Positions 21,141-27,717 of a stretch of DNA of 56,632 bases are shown in pieces. The notes under the pieces are model-generated. The model ran no database searches. It had not been told where the DNA came from and was given only the letters and a program-made list of their open reading frames with translations. Each line of letters begins with the position of its first letter. Positions within the stretch are counted from its first letter, which is position 1. The DNA is taken from the NCBI GenBank assembly GCA_041663745.1, contig JBAYMB010000001.1, positions 1-56,632 on the forward strand, in the 5' to 3' direction. The position numbers and the translations under genes were made by a program. This DNA comes from Minisyncoccota bacterium. GTDB lineage: Bacteria > Patescibacteriota > Minisyncoccia > Phycocordibacterales > GWA1-40-21.

Positions 21141-21210
21141 GTTGACTTTTAATTTCATCTTTGTTAATACTTAGATTAGAAGTTTGAGAAAAGACAGGAA
21201 GGAGCGGAAC

Positions 21211-21804
21211 ATGAAAGTGTCAGAGAGCGCATTTGCGATGAGTTACGAAGACATCAGAACAAGCCTTACTGTCATAGCAGCGGAACGCGAGTGGGGAGAC
21301 TGCGCCGGGACGAAGTCTTTGGAAGAGCTCATCTCGGAAGTGGAAAAAGGCGAAAGTTTCGTGGCAAAGGTCGAGGGGCTCGGTATTGTCCGCGTCATCA
21401 TGTCCGTTCGGGTCAAAGTCCTTCATCAAGACCTGATCTTGTGGGAGTTGTTCCGCAAAAAGGAAGGCAAGATATCGTCTAGATATCTCAATTCTTCTTT
21501 GGGGGAAAAGATGTTTGTCGATGAGAAGCCCAAGGATGCCGCTTTGCGGGGCCTTCTTGAGGAATTGGGCGTGACCGTGGACAGGAATGACCTATCGGCC
21601 ACAGTCGTGGATCCCAAAAGGGAGGTGAAGGATTCGGGAAGCTTTCCCGGGCTCAAGACGGTATATTATTTCTACCCCTTTGCAGTCACTTTCGACTCTC
21701 GCGCCTACAAATCAGAATACATCACTGAAGAGAATGGGCGCAAGACCTGTTTTGTCTGGATACCGGTCGAATCATGGATAAAGATCCAAGAACTGATCTC
21801 CTGA
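21211..21804 (+). CDS. Nudix-like protein with a degenerate Nudix box, in a G+C-rich islet
   Basis: GEKMFVDEKPKDAALRGLLEELGV compares with GX5EX7REUXEEXGU: the second half RGLLEELGV fits, the first half is off by one residue. Start taken at ATG-21211, 6 nt after GGAAGGAG. Confidence 0.4.
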   Translation: MKVSESAFAMSYEDIRTSLTVIAAEREWGDCAGTKSLEELISEVEKGESFVAKVEGLGIVRVIMSVRVKVLHQDLILWELFRKKEGKISSRYLNSSLGEKMFVDEKPKDAALRGLLEELGVTVDRNDLSATVVDPKREVKDSGSFPGLKTVYYFYPFAVTFDSRAYKSEYITEENGRKTCFVWIPVESWIKIQELIS

Positions 21805-21820
21805 GATTCGATCGTTTGGA

Positions 21821-21852
21821 GGGTGGCGTGCCATTAGGGCGCCACCTTTTTT
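21821..21852. terminator. Bidirectional terminator between convergent genes
   Basis: GGTGGCG (21822-21828) pairs with CGCCACC (21840-21846), then T6. It overlaps the stop of the minus-strand HAD gene. Confidence 0.65.
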
Positions 21853-22537
21853 ATATCAAATACTTCTCTATTTCTACGAGCAAAGACAGCTGAGGACAAT
21901 CAACATCAAGATTTTTTTCTTTCTGGTTCACCAAGATCGAATTTATTCCCAATTTCTTCGGTTCCATGTGATCTGACATCACTCTGTCTCCGATATACAA
22001 GAACTGGTCAGGTTTGAGACTAGGATATTTTTTCATCCATATCTTATATGCCGAACCGTCCGATTTTGAGACATCATCTTGAGTGAAAATATTATTGAAT
22101 AGACGGAGATCGAACCCAAGATGTCCAAGTTTTTCCTTTGTTATCTTCAGGTTTGAGCCGGTTATGATATCCAGATTGCCATACCTTTCCTTCAGTTTTT
22201 TGACGATGCTCAGTGTTTTTTCGTCAGGGCTCAAGAACTTCGCTATATCGGCCTTTTCAAGGGCCATTTGAACGACCTCTTTGGCATTTGGAACGCCAAG
22301 AACCTCCAGACTTTTGCTGCCGCTCAGTCCAGCCCCGTCCTTATACAGGTCTTTGAACATTTTTTTGGATTCCTCTATGGTCGTGTGCCTTTGCTCCGAT
22401 ATCTTCCTATATATGTATTCTTGTATAGTCTCATCGATCTCCGGAGATTTCGGAAAGAGCGTCTGGTCCAGATCGAAGCCTATGACCTTTATGTTTTTTT
22501 TATAGTCAAAATTCATATTAGTTTGATCTTCCGACAT
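21851..22537 (-). CDS. HAD-superfamily (subfamily IA-like) phosphatase, possible nucleotidase
   Basis: Motif I VIGFDLDQTLF, with motif III/IV ...YIGDRVMSD. Overlaps the upstream gene by 20 nt. Confidence 0.75.
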   Translation of the reverse strand: MSEDQTNMNFDYKKNIKVIGFDLDQTLFPKSPEIDETIQEYIYRKISEQRHTTIEESKKMFKDLYKDGAGLSGSKSLEVLGVPNAKEVVQMALEKADIAKFLSPDEKTLSIVKKLKERYGNLDIITGSNLKITKEKLGHLGFDLRLFNNIFTQDDVSKSDGSAYKIWMKKYPSLKPDQFLYIGDRVMSDHMEPKKLGINSILVNQKEKNLDVDCPQLSLLVEIEKYLI

Positions 22538-24926
22538 ATATTATCACGGATTCACCGAGATCGTTCCCCAGCTCTTTCTTGTATTGCGTCACGAGATAGT
22601 TCACAAGCCCTCTGTCTTTTTCCAGATTTTTTATGGAATGGTTCATGAACACTGCTGTGGCGTATATCTTTTCGCCATACACATTCGCTTGGAAGAATGC
22701 CAGCATGTCGGATTGCGGGTCGGTCTTGCCCGGAATATATTCGCCTATTATCGGGTTATTGTGCTTGCCGCCCTTTTTGACTAGATATTCTATGGCTTTA
22801 TTGAGTATGTTGACGCTGTTGTAATTTTCCAGGACGTCCAAAGTCCTGCTTTTCGGCCTCTCGTCGCTCTCCTTCGCCTGTTCTTGGAATATAGCGACGA
22901 TATTTTTCGGCCTTATTCCGCCTTTTCCTTTCAGATCATACGGTCCGCTGTCCATATTCACCTCACCGCAAGGTTTGGACGGTTCTGCGAGGATCTTCTT
23001 CGTCCTCTGCTCTTCGGACAGAAGCAGAATGTTTGCCCTGTTTGAGAGCATGAACATATCGCCGGATCTCAATCCCAAAGCTTCCCGAAGGGGAGCGACA
23101 TATGCATCATGCAGTCCGAAGATGTTTTCCGGATATGCATTCACCGCGTTATGCGCTCTTGCTATGTGGAAAGAATGTAATTTCCCGTTCTCAACGAAAA
23201 ATATGTCGTGGGTCAGGCAGGGGTCATGGGAAAATTTGAGCTTCTTGGTCGCGGTATCGATGTAGAAGGACATGTCCTTCACGGGATCGAACCTTTGGAC
23301 TATGGTCGCCAGATCCTTGTTCTTCAACAAGGTCTTTTTGGTCGTTTCCATCTGATCAAAGCCGAAATATGCCCTTGTCCTCTCGCCGTATGTATATGTC
23401 CCGTCGTTGTCCTTCCTCATCAATTGGCTCTTATATGCTTCCCTTATTTCTTCTCCCGTTTGATTTCCCTGCCTGTATATTTCCGGGAATATCTTCAATG
23501 CGGAATCCACATCCCTGTATATGGCAAGCACGGAAGCGGACCTCGCCAGTCCTTTCCACTCATCCCCGTGATTTTCCGTTATGCCCTCGGTGTATATCTT
23601 CCTCAATACGGATTTATGGGTATCCAAGAACGAATCGCTCTCCGAAACGAGGAAGGGGAGCTTTGTCTTGTTTATCTTGAATATGGGGATGAAGTCCTGA
23701 ATGAAGGAATAGCCGAATTTTGCCGCTATCCCGGCCCTGCTTGTCTGGGTTCCGACATCCAGCCTGTGCAGGAAATCCATCTCATATCTCTCAAATCTGT
23801 CCAATTCGGCTATCTTCTCAAGGACAACGGTGACGCTCTCTGATATGAGCTCAAAAATCTCCTCGCAGGCGTCAAAAGCCATGCACATGACGCGCACGCC
23901 TTCCTTGCCATTGTTTATCTTGTAGTAGTATTTTTTGTCTATTATGGTCTTAATCTGGTTTTCCACGGGAATCTCTCTCGTACCAAGAATATTATTTTCT
24001 TTCACGAAAGGCTTCGTCTCAATGCTGTTTGAGAGCTCGATGCTTGCTCGTCCGAGCTCTGCGCCGAGCACGAGCTGTTCAATATGGGAGAAGGAATCTT
24101 TTTCTTTGCCCAAGAATTTCAAAAGGGTGTATCCGACAATGAAAGGATTCTCCGATTTTATGAAAACATCCCCCTTTTTTGTCCTTATATCGAGCCTTAT
24201 GTACTTTCCTTCGGCGACCGATGCTTTGAACGGGCAGTCGAAAGTCTCGTCTTTTCCGGAGAGTATGATCTTCGGGGGCTCAAGATGCCTGTATTCCTTC
24301 GGGTCTATGTTTATCGCGGTCTTTTTCTCCGTCTTAATCGAAGCTACCAATGAAATGAGCTTGTTCAGGGAGTCATAGTATATCTTGTCTTTTTTGTTAA
24401 TCTCCTCAAGGAGAGCTATGATCTTCGGATCGGTTTTCGGCTTGAGCCAGTTCAGGTAGTTTTCTATTATCTTTTGACTGGCCGCATTTTTGTGCATGAA
24501 CACAGGCAGAACTATGATCTCATCCTTGAAAATATTGAATATGTTCTTGCTCAGGTTGGGGTAATATGGCGAGGCGGCGATACCTTCTTTGATGTAATTT
24601 CCTTCCTTGTTCTCCACGAATCCGTTCTGCATGGCCTGCAGAAGGTTCGTGCTCGGGGCGAAGGTCACGGTCTCCTCGGAGAAAAGTATGAGGTATCTTT
24701 GGGTCGGATGGGCGAGGCAGTTCAATATCATCCTTTCAACGCCATCTCGGCTTACGATGAGCGACCCGAGGACCGCCACATTCTTCCTGTTGTTCTCCTC
24801 TATGCTGCTCAAAACCTCACCGGCCGACGTGGTGTTCGTGCATATGCCGATAATCCCTTGCGCTCCTTCCTCGGGCGTCAGGAGTATCGCTTCTACCAAT
24901 GGAAATTTTGTTTTTATGTCCTTCAT
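22518..24926 (-). CDS. 802-aa fusion: MtrA/DUF4346-like N-terminal domain + unknown middle region + thymidylate-synthase (ThyA)-fold domain
   Basis: Residues ~50-140 (GVERMILNCLAHPTQRYLILFSEE...LLQAMQNG...) parallel MtrA [24 protein letters not shown]...IEALHQNG. Residues ~510-635 (YGERTRAYFGFDQ...DPCLTHDIFFVENGKLHSFHIARAHNAVNAYPENIFGL...GDMFML) parallel ThyA YGKQWR...DQ...[38 protein letters not shown]...GDFVWT. Confidence 0.7.
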   Translation of the reverse strand: MKDIKTKFPLVEAILLTPEEGAQGIIGICTNTTSAGEVLSSIEENNRKNVAVLGSLIVSRDGVERMILNCLAHPTQRYLILFSEETVTFAPSTNLLQAMQNGFVENKEGNYIKEGIAASPYYPNLSKNIFNIFKDEIIVLPVFMHKNAASQKIIENYLNWLKPKTDPKIIALLEEINKKDKIYYDSLNKLISLVASIKTEKKTAINIDPKEYRHLEPPKIILSGKDETFDCPFKASVAEGKYIRLDIRTKKGDVFIKSENPFIVGYTLLKFLGKEKDSFSHIEQLVLGAELGRASIELSNSIETKPFVKENNILGTREIPVENQIKTIIDKKYYYKINNGKEGVRVMCMAFDACEEIFELISESVTVVLEKIAELDRFERYEMDFLHRLDVGTQTSRAGIAAKFGYSFIQDFIPIFKINKTKLPFLVSESDSFLDTHKSVLRKIYTEGITENHGDEWKGLARSASVLAIYRDVDSALKIFPEIYRQGNQTGEEIREAYKSQLMRKDNDGTYTYGERTRAYFGFDQMETTKKTLLKNKDLATIVQRFDPVKDMSFYIDTATKKLKFSHDPCLTHDIFFVENGKLHSFHIARAHNAVNAYPENIFGLHDAYVAPLREALGLRSGDMFMLSNRANILLLSEEQRTKKILAEPSKPCGEVNMDSGPYDLKGKGGIRPKNIVAIFQEQAKESDERPKSRTLDVLENYNSVNILNKAIEYLVKKGGKHNNPIIGEYIPGKTDPQSDMLAFFQANVYGEKIYATAVFMNHSIKNLEKDRGLVNYLVTQYKKELGNDLGESVIIYVGRSN

Positions 24927-24930
24927 TGTT

Positions 24931-25809
24931 TTATTTCCAGTTCTTGCTACTCCAGGAATTCGGCAGATATTCCGATATTGAGTGTTTGTCCATTTTTTCA
25001 GAATCCATGGAGAAACAATGTATGTTCGGGTTCAAATTGAATTTTGCCGATATCTCAGCGATGAATTGGCGGCAGATTCCGCACATATTGCAAGGCTCAT
25101 CCGCATACTTTGTTGAAACGAGAGCGATATCAGTCATCTCCGCATTCCCATCCATCATCGCAGACAGCATTGCGCACATCTCCGAGTGTAGGCCAAGCCT
25201 TTTGTCCGGAGTGGAGTATTGCCCGGCAAAATACAGAGTGCCGTTTTTTGTGAGCACTGCCGTGCCGTATCCAGAAGCTTTGTCGGATGTCGGGAAGTTC
25301 CTCGTCACTCCTTCGATCGCATATTTTTTCAGAGTTCTCGTCTTATCTTCCTCGTCTCTGACCTTGACCGCGATCTTGTTCTTTGAAACTTCAGAATCGT
25401 TCGTCATGGAAAGGATGTTCATCTTCGGGTCATAGTATTTTGAAAGCTCCGTGACATCCTTTACAGATAGCAGGGTCTTTCCTTCAGAATCTATCACCTC
25501 GTATGATATCGGCACTCCGGTTCTTTTATAGTGATCGATCATTATCTCAACGGTCTGAGGCAAGACTGAGACACTGTCTTCCACAAGCGTTATCACTTTG
25601 TTTATTTTGTAGTCTCTTGAAGCTGAGGCCAATGCCAAGGATGCCTGTTCTGAGCTTATGTTCAAAAGATGCGTATCGGAATCAACCGAGCCTGCAATAT
25701 ATGAGTTTCCCTTTTCCGATATGGCAATAGAGGATGTCTTTTTACCTTCCTTTTTTTTGCTGACGCACAGATCCAAGGCCTCTTTTAGGGTTTTTGCGTG
25801 ATTTTGCAT
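24931..25809 (-). CDS. cdd: Two-domain cytidine deaminase (degenerate N-terminal domain, catalytic C-terminal domain)
   Basis: C-terminal half has HSEMCAM (H-A-E type) and PCNMCGICRQFIAE (PCxxC) zinc motifs. The N-terminal half has SEQASLA and LPQTVEIM at the equivalent positions, with no ligands. Confidence 0.75.
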   Translation of the reverse strand: MQNHAKTLKEALDLCVSKKKEGKKTSSIAISEKGNSYIAGSVDSDTHLLNISSEQASLALASASRDYKINKVITLVEDSVSVLPQTVEIMIDHYKRTGVPISYEVIDSEGKTLLSVKDVTELSKYYDPKMNILSMTNDSEVSKNKIAVKVRDEEDKTRTLKKYAIEGVTRNFPTSDKASGYGTAVLTKNGTLYFAGQYSTPDKRLGLHSEMCAMLSAMMDGNAEMTDIALVSTKYADEPCNMCGICRQFIAEISAKFNLNPNIHCFSMDSEKMDKHSISEYLPNSWSSKNWK

Positions 25810-25812
25810 ATC

Positions 25813-26718
25813 CTAGAATATGTCTATATTGCTCCTTAATCTGCTGATGTTCAATTTCGTATTTGACCAGTCATAGTGCAGAACCTTTTTCAAAAAGTCG
25901 TTGAAAAGATGGATCTTGTCCCTCTCAAGCCTCGGGTACATTTTCTCTGATCTCTTGCTTGAAAGCCGTATGGTAGGTCTGAAAGGCATGGGGAAGGCGT
26001 AATACGGCACCAGGCTGGTATTTTTTTGAGGTTCGACAAGTATCACATTTATCGGTTCATTCAAATACTCGGTGGCGTAATCTATCCTGTGGCTTCCATC
26101 GCAGACTATGTAGAAATCATGCGGGCCGTTGTATTGCACGCCGTAATTTATGATGGGTGCGTTTGAATTGAAGATGTCCAAGTGCCTTATGGCGCTCACC
26201 TCGTCTATGTTGAAGTTCTGAAGATACCTGTTTGATATCTTGTGCAGATATTCCTGAGCGTCCTTCACGCAGTATCCTTCGAACTTTTCCACGAGCTTAT
26301 CAAGATCGACATAGCCGTTCTTTAGGTCATACGTATGTTTTTCCACTATTGGTGGTATCATGTGATACGAGTCTCTACCTTCCCAGTCGTATCCTATGCC
26401 TCCTTCAAGCTGATGGACTCTCATCTTCTCTCCCTTGAGGAACTCATCCACTGTTTTTATTATATCAAGCTGGTTCAGATATATCGTCGGCTGGGGAGAG
26501 AACAAAGTCTCCTTCTTTTTGCCGGAAAGTATGGTCGGGGAATCGCACATCGATTTCGGGGGATAGACGGTGGTCAAAGTGAACTTGGCATTCTCATACG
26601 GCTTCAATTTTTCCCCCTTTTTGTCATATATACCTCTAAAGGTGAGTGTTCTTAACACCTTTTTCAATTCCTCAAAGTCTATTTTGGATTTTAACGTCAG
26701 TTTGTGGTTCATGGCCAA
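25813..26718 (-). CDS. ParB/sulfiredoxin-fold (DGxHR) domain protein of unknown function
   Basis: HDFYIVCDGSHRIDYATEYLNEPINVILV matches the ParB N-terminal/Srx core (x-DG-x-HR). First gene of the minus-strand operon. Confidence 0.55.
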   Translation of the reverse strand: MAMNHKLTLKSKIDFEELKKVLRTLTFRGIYDKKGEKLKPYENAKFTLTTVYPPKSMCDSPTILSGKKKETLFSPQPTIYLNQLDIIKTVDEFLKGEKMRVHQLEGGIGYDWEGRDSYHMIPPIVEKHTYDLKNGYVDLDKLVEKFEGYCVKDAQEYLHKISNRYLQNFNIDEVSAIRHLDIFNSNAPIINYGVQYNGPHDFYIVCDGSHRIDYATEYLNEPINVILVEPQKNTSLVPYYAFPMPFRPTIRLSSKRSEKMYPRLERDKIHLFNDFLKKVLHYDWSNTKLNISRLRSNIDIF

Positions 26719-26821: not shown

Positions 26822-27292
26822 ATGGGAAATATCGATCAAAAACAGGTGAAATACGTCCTAGAGACGGACAAGTTCATGAAACTGGCCAGGGAATATGCTG
26901 AAAGGTATTCGACCGACCGACTGCAGCCTGTCGGTTCTGTCATTGTCAAGAACGGAGAGGTCGTGGGGGGAGGGGCGAACAAGATGCCCATAAACAACCA
27001 CAGGTTCCAATTGATGCATGCTCGGGGATTTTGTATACGTCGAATTCTACATATTCCATCTGGAAAGCTATACTGGCTCTGTCCCGGATGCGGCCAGCCG
27101 AGAAATCATTCGGAAAGAAGGGCTATTAGAGATGCTGTGAAGAGGGGTATGGATATAGATGGAGCGGACCTATACCTTTGGGGACATTTTCAAGTGTGCG
27201 AGACATGTCGGGATGCTATAATGAAGGCTCGGATAAAGAATGTCTTCTTGCTTGAGAATAGCAATGTTCTGTTTAAAAGGAAAAATACATAA
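26822..27292 (+). CDS. dCMP (deoxycytidylate) deaminase-family zinc deaminase
   Basis: HSERRAIRDA (HxE) and QVCETCRDAIMKA (CxxC) motifs; ~156 aa, ComEB/dCMP-deaminase-like. Confidence 0.75.
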   Translation: MGNIDQKQVKYVLETDKFMKLAREYAERYSTDRLQPVGSVIVKNGEVVGGGANKMPINNHRFQLMHARGFCIRRILHIPSGKLYWLCPGCGQPRNHSERRAIRDAVKRGMDIDGADLYLWGHFQVCETCRDAIMKARIKNVFLLENSNVLFKRKNT

Positions 27293-27294
27293 CA

Positions 27295-27717
27295 ATGAAA
27301 CTAAAGATCAAAAAACTTCATTCTGATGCAAAGATTCCTCACTATGCTCACCCGGGCGATGTGGGTTTAGATCTTTTTTCGTTGGAAGATTACAATTTGA
27401 AACCAATGGAAAGAAAAGTTTTTGATATCGGATTTGCTTTGGAGTTTGAGATTGGCTATGCGGCAATAGTAAAAGACAAGAGCTCTTTGCCAAATAAGGC
27501 TGGGATACATACGATGGGCGGGGTATATGATGCGGGCTATCGCGGGGAATATAATGTCCAACTCATAAATCTCGGACAGGAAACATATCATATATCAAAA
27601 GGGGATAAGATAGCGCAACTCGTCATATATCCTGTTATCATAGCCGAGCTTGAGGAAACTGACGATCTGTCTGATTCCAGCCGAGGCCACGGAAGATTTG
27701 GAAGCACGGGGAAATGA
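27295..27717 (+). CDS. dut: dUTP diphosphatase
   Basis: AHPGDVGLDL, GVYDAGYRGE, IAQLVIYPV and SSRGHGRFGSTGK dUTPase motifs. Lies 2 nt after the deaminase gene. Confidence 0.9.
   Translation: MKLKIKKLHSDAKIPHYAHPGDVGLDLFSLEDYNLKPMERKVFDIGFALEFEIGYAAIVKDKSSLPNKAGIHTMGGVYDAGYRGEYNVQLINLGQETYHISKGDKIAQLVIYPVIIAELEETDDLSDSSRGHGRFGSTGK

What the first reader, a model, noticed from the sequence alone, without database searches (positions are those of the whole stretch)
25813..26718. ParB/sulfiredoxin-fold (CDGSHR) protein as first gene of a nucleotide-metabolism operon
The 301-aa protein contains FYIVCDGSHRIDYATEYLNEPINVILV, the DGxHR core of the ParB N-terminal/Srx fold. It has no HTH or other DNA-binding module that I can see.

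Members of this fold bind and hydrolyse nucleotides: ParB is a CTPase, sulfiredoxin is an ATP-dependent phosphotransferase, and an archaeal serine kinase uses this fold. The gene sits 3 nt upstream of a cytidine deaminase and in the same operon as the ThyA-fold fusion. A cytidine-nucleotide hydrolase or kinase role, feeding (d)C nucleotides into the deaminase steps, is therefore plausible. That would be a new metabolic use of the fold.
Basis: inference. Interest (0 to 1): 0.6.

Follow-up and report, generated by a model that had tools for sequence, protein, structure and literature searches.

The report
ParB-like enzyme of thymidylate operons
This gene encodes an uncharacterised enzyme-like protein with a ParB/sulfiredoxin-type nucleotide-binding motif; in ultra-small bacteria and archaea it is always encoded next to a thymidylate synthase and a nucleotide phosphatase, so it is probably an unrecognised step in making the DNA base T.

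Summary
The ORF, the CDGSHR motif, the 3-nt gap to the deaminase gene and the lack of any HTH are all real. The likelier start is the ATG at 26712, giving 299 aa.

The protein belongs to Pfam PF24392 "ParB-CE", not to DNA-binding ParB; the genome has its own canonical ParB elsewhere. ParB/Srx ancestry rests on motif order and about 30-residue local fold matches. Two AlphaFold models, one with pLDDT 90.6, have no significant PDB match.

The strong result is context:
- The cassette ParB-CE, tandem deaminase, 802-aa ThyA-like protein and HAD recurs in about 50 CPR and DPANN genomes.
- These genomes lack ThyA and ThyX (1 fragment in 50, against 131 of 151 in the phylum) and DHFR (0 of 10).
- Distant ParB-CE members sit in ThyA–ParB-CE–HAD triads (7 of 7), in a ThyX–ParB-CE–Tmk::HAD operon, beside an HD phosphohydrolase, and in a 287-kb IMG/VR contig.

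The fixed partners are therefore a thymidylate synthase of either type and a nucleotide phosphatase, not the cytidine deaminase.

I favour an NTP-dependent phosphotransferase acting on dTMP/dTDP or deoxyuridine (about 0.4).

Earlier notes of this scan describe the same module on other genomes. I found no paper that describes it.

The parts
25813..26712 (-). ParB-CE-like gene (long form). It is 299 aa from the ATG at 26712; an alternative TTG at 26718 gives 301 aa.
   Evidence: PF24392 scores 25.6 bits against a cut-off of 23. There are 243 homologues.
26086..26103 (-). CDGSHR motif (residues 206-211 of the 301-aa frame), the DGxHR strand-to-helix element.
   Evidence: Invariant. D, H and R are invariant across the superfamily. 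This is the only part that matches Srx/ParB-domain structures locally.
26341..26355 (-). PPIVE motif (residues 122-126). P123 and E126 are invariant across the superfamily.
   Evidence: By inference it corresponds in order to the 'PPIDV' / 'PIxV' strand of Srx/ParB.
25990..26007 (-). PYYAFP motif (residues 238-243). It opens a conserved C-terminal tail carrying K268, H270, K278 and R295.
24931..25809 (-). Tandem cytidine-deaminase-fold protein, 292 aa. Only the C-terminal half has zinc ligands (H-x-E ... CxxC).
   Evidence: The ligands are conserved in 49 orthologues.
22518..24926 (-). 802-aa protein combining an MtrA/DUF4346-like domain with an archaeal-type ThyA-like domain.
   Evidence: TIGR03283 at 9e-15; MtrA at 2e-5. 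It is conserved next to the ParB-like gene.
21851..22537 (-). HAD-IA phosphatase resembling pyrimidine 5'-nucleotidases, 228 aa.
   Evidence: It is 30-34% identical to the HAD of the short-form triads.
26822..27292 (+). dCMP deaminase, transcribed divergently.
   Evidence: PF00383 at 1.8e-17.
27295..27717 (+). dUTPase.
   Evidence: TIGR00576 at 3e-37. A dUTPase lies within the fetched flank of about 21 related loci, directly upstream and divergent in about half of them.
21184..21804 (+). Nudix-like ORF convergent with the operon. It is co-located in about 10 related loci.

Best explanation
SHOWN
- The gene encodes a long-form member of the ParB-CE family (Pfam PF24392). It is a soluble, enzyme-like protein with a ParB/sulfiredoxin-type DGxHR nucleotide-binding motif and no DNA-binding module.
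- It is a fixed component of thymidylate-synthesis gene modules.
- In this genome it is the first gene of a four-gene operon: ParB-CE, tandem deaminase, 802-aa ThyA-like protein, HAD phosphatase. This operon replaces ThyA or ThyX.
- Across the family, the constant partners are a thymidylate synthase of either type and a nucleotide phosphohydrolase (HAD or HD).

INFERRED MECHANISM
- The protein binds an NTP at the DGxHR site.
- It transfers the terminal phosphate to a pyrimidine deoxynucleotide of the thymidylate branch. Most likely this is dTMP to dTDP and/or dTDP to dTTP; alternatively deoxyuridine or thymidine to the monophosphate.
- The paired HAD or HD nucleotidase would act as the opposing or proof-reading phosphatase.
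- Reasoning: these genomes appear to reduce ribonucleoside triphosphates directly, so dTTP would be the only dNTP that has to be built up from a monophosphate, and they lack Tmk and an Ndk signature.

CONFIDENCE
The stated confidence of 0.4 applies to the kinase reading. That the protein is a nucleotide-metabolic enzyme of the thymidylate module rather than a DNA-binding ParB I put at about 0.85.
For: Module membership
- The four-gene order is kept in nearly every one of about 50 CPR and DPANN loci.
- The short form sits in ThyA, ParB-CE, HAD triads in 7 of 7 contexts.
- Other contexts: ThyX, ParB-CE, Tmk::HAD (L077); HD, ParB-CE with a divergent Tmk (L078); HAD, ParB-CE, dCMP deaminase, ThyA::PterinBD on an IMG/VR contig.
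- Of 50 long-form cassette genomes (48 via handles plus G000 and G027), one has a ThyA fragment and none has ThyX. The phylum sample has 131 of 151.

Enzyme-like character
- Sixteen residues are invariant across forms that share only 20-28% identity. They include Q76, E126, D207, H210, R211, Y239, Y240, K268, H270, K278 and R295.
- No HTH is found.
- The genome has a separate canonical ParB.

Kinase lean
- Tmk is over cut-off in 3 of 34 Paceibacteria-type cassette genomes, against 109 of 149 in the phylum sample (Fisher p 3e-12, not phylogenetically corrected). Six of six same-class or same-order controls have a Tmk match, one of them weak.
- Ten CPR loci with a related roughly 500-aa ThyA::PterinBD protein lack ParB-CE and HAD within about 7 kb; four of them have Tmk next to it.
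- The near-complete relative G401 has a class II RTPR-like reductase with an ATP-cone, one Adk, no Tmk and no Ndk motif.
- Characterised non-DNA-binding members of the ParB/Srx fold (SerK, SbnI, Srx) are ATP-dependent phosphotransferases (PMC12704722; bioRxiv 10.64898/2026.05.05.722872).
- Two natural fusions join ParB-CE to a YfbR-like HD 5'-deoxynucleotidase-type domain. This ties the family to deoxynucleotide phosphate chemistry.
Against: - ParB-CE coexists with Tmk, sometimes in the same operon (L077, L078). Tmk is also present in Peribacteria, in about half of the DPANN long-form genomes and in G747. It therefore cannot simply be a Tmk substitute.
- 26% of CPR genomes lack a detectable Tmk without having ParB-CE.
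- G401 has two AAA_33 kinases that could fill the Tmk role.
- An obligatory phosphatase partner fits a hydrolytic NTP to NMP route at least as well.
- The Ndk absence rests on a regular expression applied to only two genomes.
- The RTPR assignment rests on Pfam hits just below their gathering scores.
- No sequence or fold similarity to SerK, SbnI or Srx was detected beyond the motif.
- No biochemical data exist.
Confidence: 0.4

Rival explanations
1. (d)NTP phosphohydrolase. ParB-CE would hydrolyse dCTP or dUTP (or CTP) as ParB hydrolyses CTP. Together with the HAD or HD phosphohydrolase it would deliver dCMP or dUMP (or the nucleosides) to the deaminases and the thymidylate synthase. This would be analogous to T4 gp56 dCTPase/dUTPase feeding dCMP deaminase and Td.
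For: - A phosphohydrolase partner is always present, either HAD or HD.
- dCMP deaminase is adjacent in the window, in the IMG/VR contig L117 and in four of the seven short-form contexts (L059, L074, L075, L076); a dCTP deaminase is adjacent in L073.
- The relative's reductase looks like an NTP-reducing class II enzyme. dCMP would then have to come from dCTP.
- ParB is a CTPase (PMC12704722).
- From memory and from earlier scan notes, the Pfam name derives from a prediction of nucleotide-degrading ParB versions (Nicastro et al. 2023). That paper was not held.
Against: - A dedicated dUTPase is already encoded alongside in many loci.
- The HAD resembles NMP 5'-nucleotidases rather than NDP-ases.
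- It does not explain how dTMP is phosphorylated in genomes that lack Tmk.
- Some modules have no deaminase at all (L060, the P0170 contig, L077).
Confidence: 0.25
2. Nucleotide-sensing regulatory or scaffold subunit. ParB-CE would bind an NTP or dNTP (for example dTTP or CTP) as a switch. It would gate the activity of the thymidylate synthase or phosphatase pair to balance the dTTP pool, without acting on a metabolite itself.
For: - Canonical ParB-fold proteins are NTP-dependent switches.
- Translational coupling and overlapping genes suggest stoichiometric complexes.
- The protein occurs with either ThyA-type or ThyX-type synthases.
Against: - The density of invariant polar and charged residues (E126, D207, H210, R211, K268, H270, K278, R295) looks catalytic.
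- No oligomerisation or clamp domain is present.
Confidence: 0.12
3. Cofactor-side function: a DHFR analogue or a C1-donor activating enzyme for the atypical ThyA-like synthase.
For: - DHFR is found in 0 of 10 ParB-CE genomes, against 62 of 63 CPR genomes with canonical ThyA.
- ParB-CE occupies the position next to ThyA that folA often occupies.
- SHMT and FolD are absent in G000, G401 and G403.
Against: - ParB-CE also accompanies ThyX, which needs no DHFR.
- Related ThyA::PterinBD enzymes occur without ParB-CE.
- There is no NAD(P)- or flavin-binding motif.
- The fusion partner is a deoxynucleotidase-like HD domain.
Confidence: 0.05
4. DNA-binding ParB-like partition protein, nuclease or transcription regulator of the operon.
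For: - The DGxHR motif also occurs in ParB-like nucleases.
- The pI is 8.8.
- The gene is first in the operon.
Against: - No HTH is present.
- A canonical ParB is encoded elsewhere.
- There is no parA or parS context.
- The strict metabolic neighbourhood holds across two domains of life.
Confidence: 0.03

Closest known systems
Pfam PF24392 'ParB CE domain' (ParB-CE)
   Same: - The window protein passes the gathering score (25.6 against 23 bits).
- It is linked by direct phmmer hits to short-form proteins that score 42-58 bits.
- It shares the motifs PQPT.Y, PP.VE, CDG.HR and PYYA.P.
   Different: - Only residues 187-246 match the model.
- The long form has an insertion of about 70 residues, an extended N-terminus and a different C-terminal tail.
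- It forms a tight clade on a very long stem separating it from the short form.
- No experimentally determined function is attached to the family in anything I could search.
Sulfiredoxin (Srx), and the serine kinases SerK and SbnI (ParB/Srx-fold phosphotransferases)
   Same: - Small proteins without an HTH.
- A (D/G)GxHR strand-to-helix element that binds the NTP phosphates. Srx and ParB/Srx-domain proteins match this element locally (about 26-38 aligned columns; rmsd 1.3-4.2 A).
- They act on small or non-DNA substrates.
   Different: - No significant sequence, profile or whole-fold similarity.
- Different substrates and pathway context.
- The conserved cysteine lies four residues before the histidine rather than adjacent as in the GCHR of Srx, and it is not invariant.
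Canonical ParB/Spo0J CTPase (PF02195 plus HTH plus dimerisation domain)
   Same: A possible shared order of core elements: a QP(R/T) loop, a helix, a PxxV strand, a Gxx(R/H)R strand-helix, then a further strand. This is an inference from motif order.
   Different: - No PF02195 hit, no GERRxRA box, no HTH, no C-terminal dimerisation domain and no parA neighbour.
- hhalign probability against the genome's own ParB is 0.3%.
Thymidylate kinase (Tmk) and the phage dNMP kinase plus nucleotidase sets (T4 gp1, gp56, Cd, Td; SPO1 hmdUMP kinase and dTMPase)
   Same: - The operon logic: a thymidylate-synthase-fold enzyme encoded with deaminase, dUTPase, a kinase-type protein and a nucleotidase.
- Tmk is depleted in long-form CPR genomes.
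   Different: - Unrelated fold; the protein is not a P-loop kinase.
- It coexists with Tmk in DPANN operons.
- Kinase activity is not demonstrated.

Membership tests
Pfam PF24392 ParB-CE | Score at or above the curated gathering threshold (23 bits) | tested here: met
   25.6 bits, E 1.4e-5, covering residues 187-246 only. The six-frame search gave 19.2 bits.
Pfam PF24392 ParB-CE | Homology over the whole domain to undisputed members | tested here: met
   - phmmer reaches short-form proteins at E 7e-8 to 2e-4. These score 42-58 bits on PF24392.
- The joint alignment has 16 invariant columns spread from residue 29 to residue 295.
ParB/Srx (ParB-CTPase) fold superfamily | (D/G)GxHR or GxxRxR phosphate-binding strand-to-helix motif | tested here: met
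   CDGSHR is invariant. Local structural matches to Srx and to viral ParB/Srx-domain proteins span about 26-38 aligned columns at rmsd 1.3-4.2 A.
ParB/Srx (ParB-CTPase) fold superfamily | Significant sequence, profile or whole-domain structural similarity to a solved member | tested here: inconclusive
   - No PF02195 hit.
- PDB profile searches found nothing.
- Foldseek gave no match at E below 0.3 for either model, including the model with pLDDT 90.6.
- hhalign probability was 0.3-5%.
Canonical chromosomal or plasmid ParB | HTH DNA-binding domain, C-terminal dimerisation domain and a parA/parS context | tested here: not met
   No such domains are found. The neighbours are metabolic genes. A true ParB lies on contig C28.
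SerK/SbnI free serine kinases; sulfiredoxin | Detectable homology to the solved enzymes | tested here: not met
   They are absent from all PDB sequence searches. Only a 30-residue Srx fragment appears in Foldseek.
Nucleotide kinase (functional class) | NTP-dependent phosphoryl transfer to a nucleoside or nucleotide | not testable with these tools
   Only phyletic and contextual evidence is available.

The most novel reading that the evidence does not exclude
ParB-CE together with its HAD or HD partner is a previously unknown enzymatic step of dTTP synthesis. Examples would be a non-P-loop dTMP/dTDP kinase, or an activating phosphotransferase that acts on a thymidylate-synthase intermediate. 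Symbiotic CPR and DPANN organisms, and possibly some large viruses, would use this step with either ThyA-type or ThyX-type synthases. The protein fold would be new relative to every solved structure.
Probability: 0.35. Interest if true: 0.85.

Novelty: new variant of a known kind. Interest (0 to 1): 0.68.

Why it matters
- Thymidylate synthesis is one of the best-mapped pathways in biology and is a drug target.
- Here a strongly conserved protein of unknown activity is genetically welded to thymidylate synthases of two unrelated types, and to a nucleotide phosphatase, across bacteria and archaea and on one contig from a viral collection.
- In about 50 genomes its cassette is the only recognisable source of dTMP. 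Those genomes also lack DHFR, and most lack Tmk.
- Finding its reaction would fill a gap in how CPR and DPANN symbionts make dTTP.
- It would also add a metabolic activity to the ParB/Srx motif family, or define a new fold.
- The prediction can be tested directly with recombinant protein and E. coli complementation.

Tried and rejected
- Whole-fold assignment. Two AlphaFold models (long form pLDDT 77.5, short form 90.6) gave no significant Foldseek hit in the PDB or BFVD. I therefore could not confirm the ParB/Srx fold or find a structural analogue.
- Sequence and profile searches against the PDB gave nothing. hhalign against the genome's own ParB and against a second DGLHR protein matched only the 15-residue motif.
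- Thymidine-kinase complementarity was uninformative. TK is rare everywhere (17 of 151 against 4 of 50).
- A strict Tmk-replacement hypothesis is rejected as a general rule, because ParB-CE and Tmk share operons in DPANN archaea and coexist in Peribacteria and in G747.
- The DHFR-analogue idea is downgraded. ParB-CE also pairs with ThyX, and ThyA::PterinBD enzymes exist without it.
- Fusion partner of P0122 and P0125. There is no Pfam hit on the fusions themselves. Stand-alone homologues give only marginal HD_3/YfbR hits (E 1e-3 to 1e-2), and their own gene neighbourhood was uninformative.
- Random sampling of two DPANN phyla found too few members for statistics.
- tblastn against INPHARED phages found no match.
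- The paper said to define ParB-CE (Nicastro et al. 2023, PMC10681802) is not held. The PNAS 2025 survey of the fold mentions neither thymidylate nor this family.

Full report
**1. Observation**

The minus-strand ORF 26718..25813 is real. It opens with TTG, but an ATG two codons further in (26712) gives MNHKL.... That start matches the 299-aa database copy and the N-termini of the homologues.

The sequence FYIVCDGSHRIDYATEYLNEPINVILV is present. C206, D207, G208, H210 and R211 are invariant in 30 orthologues.

The gene ends 3 nt before the 292-aa tandem deaminase-fold gene. That gene is followed by the 802-aa MtrA-like/ThyA-like gene and a HAD phosphatase gene. A dCMP deaminase and a dUTPase are transcribed divergently.

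Pfam and NCBIfam find no HTH. The only hit is PF24392 "ParB CE domain", at 25.6 bits against a cut-off of 23, covering residues 187-246.

The genome is a 527-kb, 86%-complete Patescibacteria (CPR) assembly. It encodes a canonical ParB with GERRLRA and an HTH on another contig. The protein studied here is therefore not the partition protein.

**2. Is it a ParB/Srx fold?**

| Test | Result |
|---|---|
| AlphaFold2, long form | pLDDT 77.5, pTM 0.81 |
| AlphaFold2, short-form relative | pLDDT 90.6, pTM 0.88 |
| Foldseek against the PDB and BFVD | no significant match; best E about 0.3-1 |
| Local Foldseek matches to sulfiredoxin and viral "ParB/Sulfiredoxin domain" proteins | only about 26-38 aligned columns, rmsd 1.3-4.2 A, over the strand-DGxHR-helix element |
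| Profile searches of PDB sequences | nothing |
| hhalign against the genome's own ParB domains | only the 15-residue motif |

The order of conserved elements is PQPT.Y loop, helix, PP.VE strand, CDG.HR strand-helix, then a further strand. This parallels the ParB/Srx core. That parallel is my inference, not a statistical result.

I therefore file the protein under PF24392 (tested and met). Membership of the ParB/Srx superfamily I treat as plausible but unproven.

**3. Family and distribution**

- The long form has 243 detectable relatives at 54-88% identity, all annotated as hypothetical.
- It is rare, found in 2 of 401 sampled genomes of the phylum.
- A scan of one genome per species found 55 loci. 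They come from Paceibacteria-type CPR, Peribacteria/Gracilibacteria and DPANN archaea (Woese-, Nano- and Iainarchaeota).
- In a maximum-likelihood tree the archaeal and bacterial long forms each group together, on short internal branches.
- An exhaustive HMMER scan found only about six full-length clusters at 50% identity. It also found a distant family of about 250 aa, which are the typical PF24392 members.
- A joint alignment keeps 16 invariant columns: G29, Q76, P77, P123, E126, D207, H210, R211, P238, Y239, Y240, A241, K268, H270, K278 and R295. That pattern is typical of an enzyme active site.

**4. Gene context, the decisive evidence**

- tblastn of the window's proteins against the loci shows the order ParB-like, deaminase-like, 802-aa ThyA-like, HAD wherever the contig is long enough. 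Gaps are mostly -1 to +12 nt in CPR. L048 has a permuted order; in L041 and L050 the ThyA-like gene is not found within the fetched locus.
- The short form lies in ThyA(archaeal type), ParB-CE, HAD triads in 7 of 7 contexts examined. The genes abut or overlap and lie near NrdD or NrdJ, NrdR, dCMP or dCTP deaminase and dUTPase.
- The HADs of the two module types are 30-34% identical.
- Following a lead from earlier scan notes, I verified two further contexts myself:
  - In a DPANN genome (L077): a doubled ThyX, then ParB-CE, then a Tmk::HAD fusion.
  - In another (L078): an HD phosphohydrolase, then ParB-CE, with a divergent Tmk.
- A 287-kb IMG/VR contig carries HAD, ParB-CE (132.8 bits on PF24392), dCMP deaminase and ThyA::PterinBD-DUF4346. 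I did not check its viral assignment.
- Two natural fusions (P0122, P0125) join the long form to an N-terminal domain. That domain's stand-alone homologues and profile match YfbR-type HD 5'-deoxynucleotidases marginally, with the motif (I/L)xHDxAE...GDI.

Across the family, then, the constant partners are a thymidylate synthase of either unrelated type and a nucleotide phosphohydrolase of either unrelated type. The tandem cytidine deaminase is specific to the long-form cassette.

**5. What the cassette replaces**

| Gene family | ParB-CE / cassette genomes | Comparison set |
|---|---|---|
| ThyA or ThyX | 1 ThyA fragment and no ThyX in 50 | 131 of 151, phylum sample |
| DHFR | 0 of 10 | 62 of 63 CPR genomes with canonical ThyA |
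| Tmk (over cut-off) | 3 of 34 Paceibacteria-type genomes | 109 of 149, phylum sample |
| TK | 4 of 50 | 17 of 151 |

- Six of six same-class or same-order controls also have a Tmk match, one of them weak.
- Tmk is nevertheless present in Peribacteria, in about half of the DPANN long-form genomes and in the one short-form genome I could search.
- TK is rare everywhere, so its distribution says nothing.
- Ten CPR loci with a related roughly 500-aa ThyA::PterinBD protein have no ParB-CE or HAD within about 7 kb; four of them have Tmk next to the gene.
- I fetched the whole 681-kb genome of the closest relative (G401). It has a class II, RTPR-like ribonucleotide reductase with an ATP-cone, one adenylate kinase and two AAA_33 kinases of unknown specificity. 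It has no Tmk and no Ndk active-site signature.

**6. Mechanism**

*Shown:* the protein is a conserved, enzyme-like, non-DNA-binding component of thymidylate modules.

*Inferred:* it uses an NTP at the DGxHR site for phosphoryl transfer on a pyrimidine deoxynucleotide.

I lean towards a kinase acting on dTMP/dTDP, or on deoxyuridine or thymidine, at about 0.4. The reasons are:
1. The Tmk and Ndk gaps in these genomes.
2. With an NTP-reducing reductase, dTTP is the only dNTP that must be phosphorylated up from the monophosphate.
3. The characterised HTH-less ParB/Srx proteins (SerK, SbnI, Srx) are ATP-dependent phosphotransferases.

In it (d)CTP or dUTP is converted to the monophosphate together with the HAD or HD partner, feeding the deaminases and the synthase. 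The obligatory phosphatase partner and the co-occurrence with Tmk favour this reading.

A regulatory NTP switch (0.12), a cofactor-side role (0.05) and DNA binding (0.03) are less likely. My reasons are given under the rival explanations.

**7. Novelty**

- The domain family exists in Pfam.
- Earlier notes of this scan describe the same module in several other genomes, so the scan has seen it before.
- I found no paper describing a thymidylate synthase, ParB-CE, phosphatase module. The 2025 PNAS survey of the ParB-CTPase fold mentions neither thymidylate nor this family.
- The paper said to have named ParB-CE is not held.
- I class the finding as a new variant of a known kind: a ParB/Srx-motif enzyme family dedicated to thymidylate metabolism, with unknown activity and a fold that has no solved counterpart.

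**Limits**

- Phyletic statistics are not corrected for shared ancestry.
- Many of the genomes are incomplete MAGs.
- The Ndk test is a motif scan on two genomes.
- The RTPR and HD assignments rest on marginal scores.

Noticed in passing
phylum sample genomes, e.g. loci L118-L127 (G056, G098, G142, G080, G016, G051, G001, G046, G140, G100): A second class of long ThyA-like proteins (about 480-570 aa) is homologous over its full length to a viral-contig ThyA::PterinBD-DUF4346 protein. It occurs in about 12% of sampled CPR genomes, next to Tmk in four of the ten loci and to dCMP deaminase or dUTPase in some, without DHFR in most and without ParB-CE or HAD.
   Followed up: partly
G000 contig C6, minus strand, 359-aa ORF (outside the window): A second protein with a C-terminal ParB-like DGLHR motif (...HWLILDGLHRLMKAY...) and an unknown N-terminal region. 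It is unrelated to the thymidylate cassette.
   Followed up: no
G401 (closest relative; loci L081-L116): This near-complete 681-kb CPR genome has only one recognisable NMP kinase (Adk) plus two AAA_33 kinases. It has no Tmk and no Ndk motif. It does have a class II RTPR-like ribonucleotide reductase with an ATP-cone. Nucleotide phosphorylation in these organisms is poorly accounted for.
   Followed up: partly
window 21184-21804 (+): A G+C-rich Nudix-like ORF convergent with the cassette recurs next to it in about 10 related loci at 27-51% identity. It may belong to the same pyrimidine deoxynucleotide system.
   Followed up: partly
proteins P0122 and P0125 (metagenomic; no locus): These are fusions of an N-terminal YfbR-like HD domain with the long-form ParB-CE. 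In P0125 the HD dyad reads NN, so its phosphohydrolase half may be inactive.
   Followed up: partly
L023 (G573): One Paceibacteria-type cassette genome does have a Tmk. Its gene lies about 500 bp upstream of the ParB-like gene, and the same genome also has a TK.
   Followed up: no
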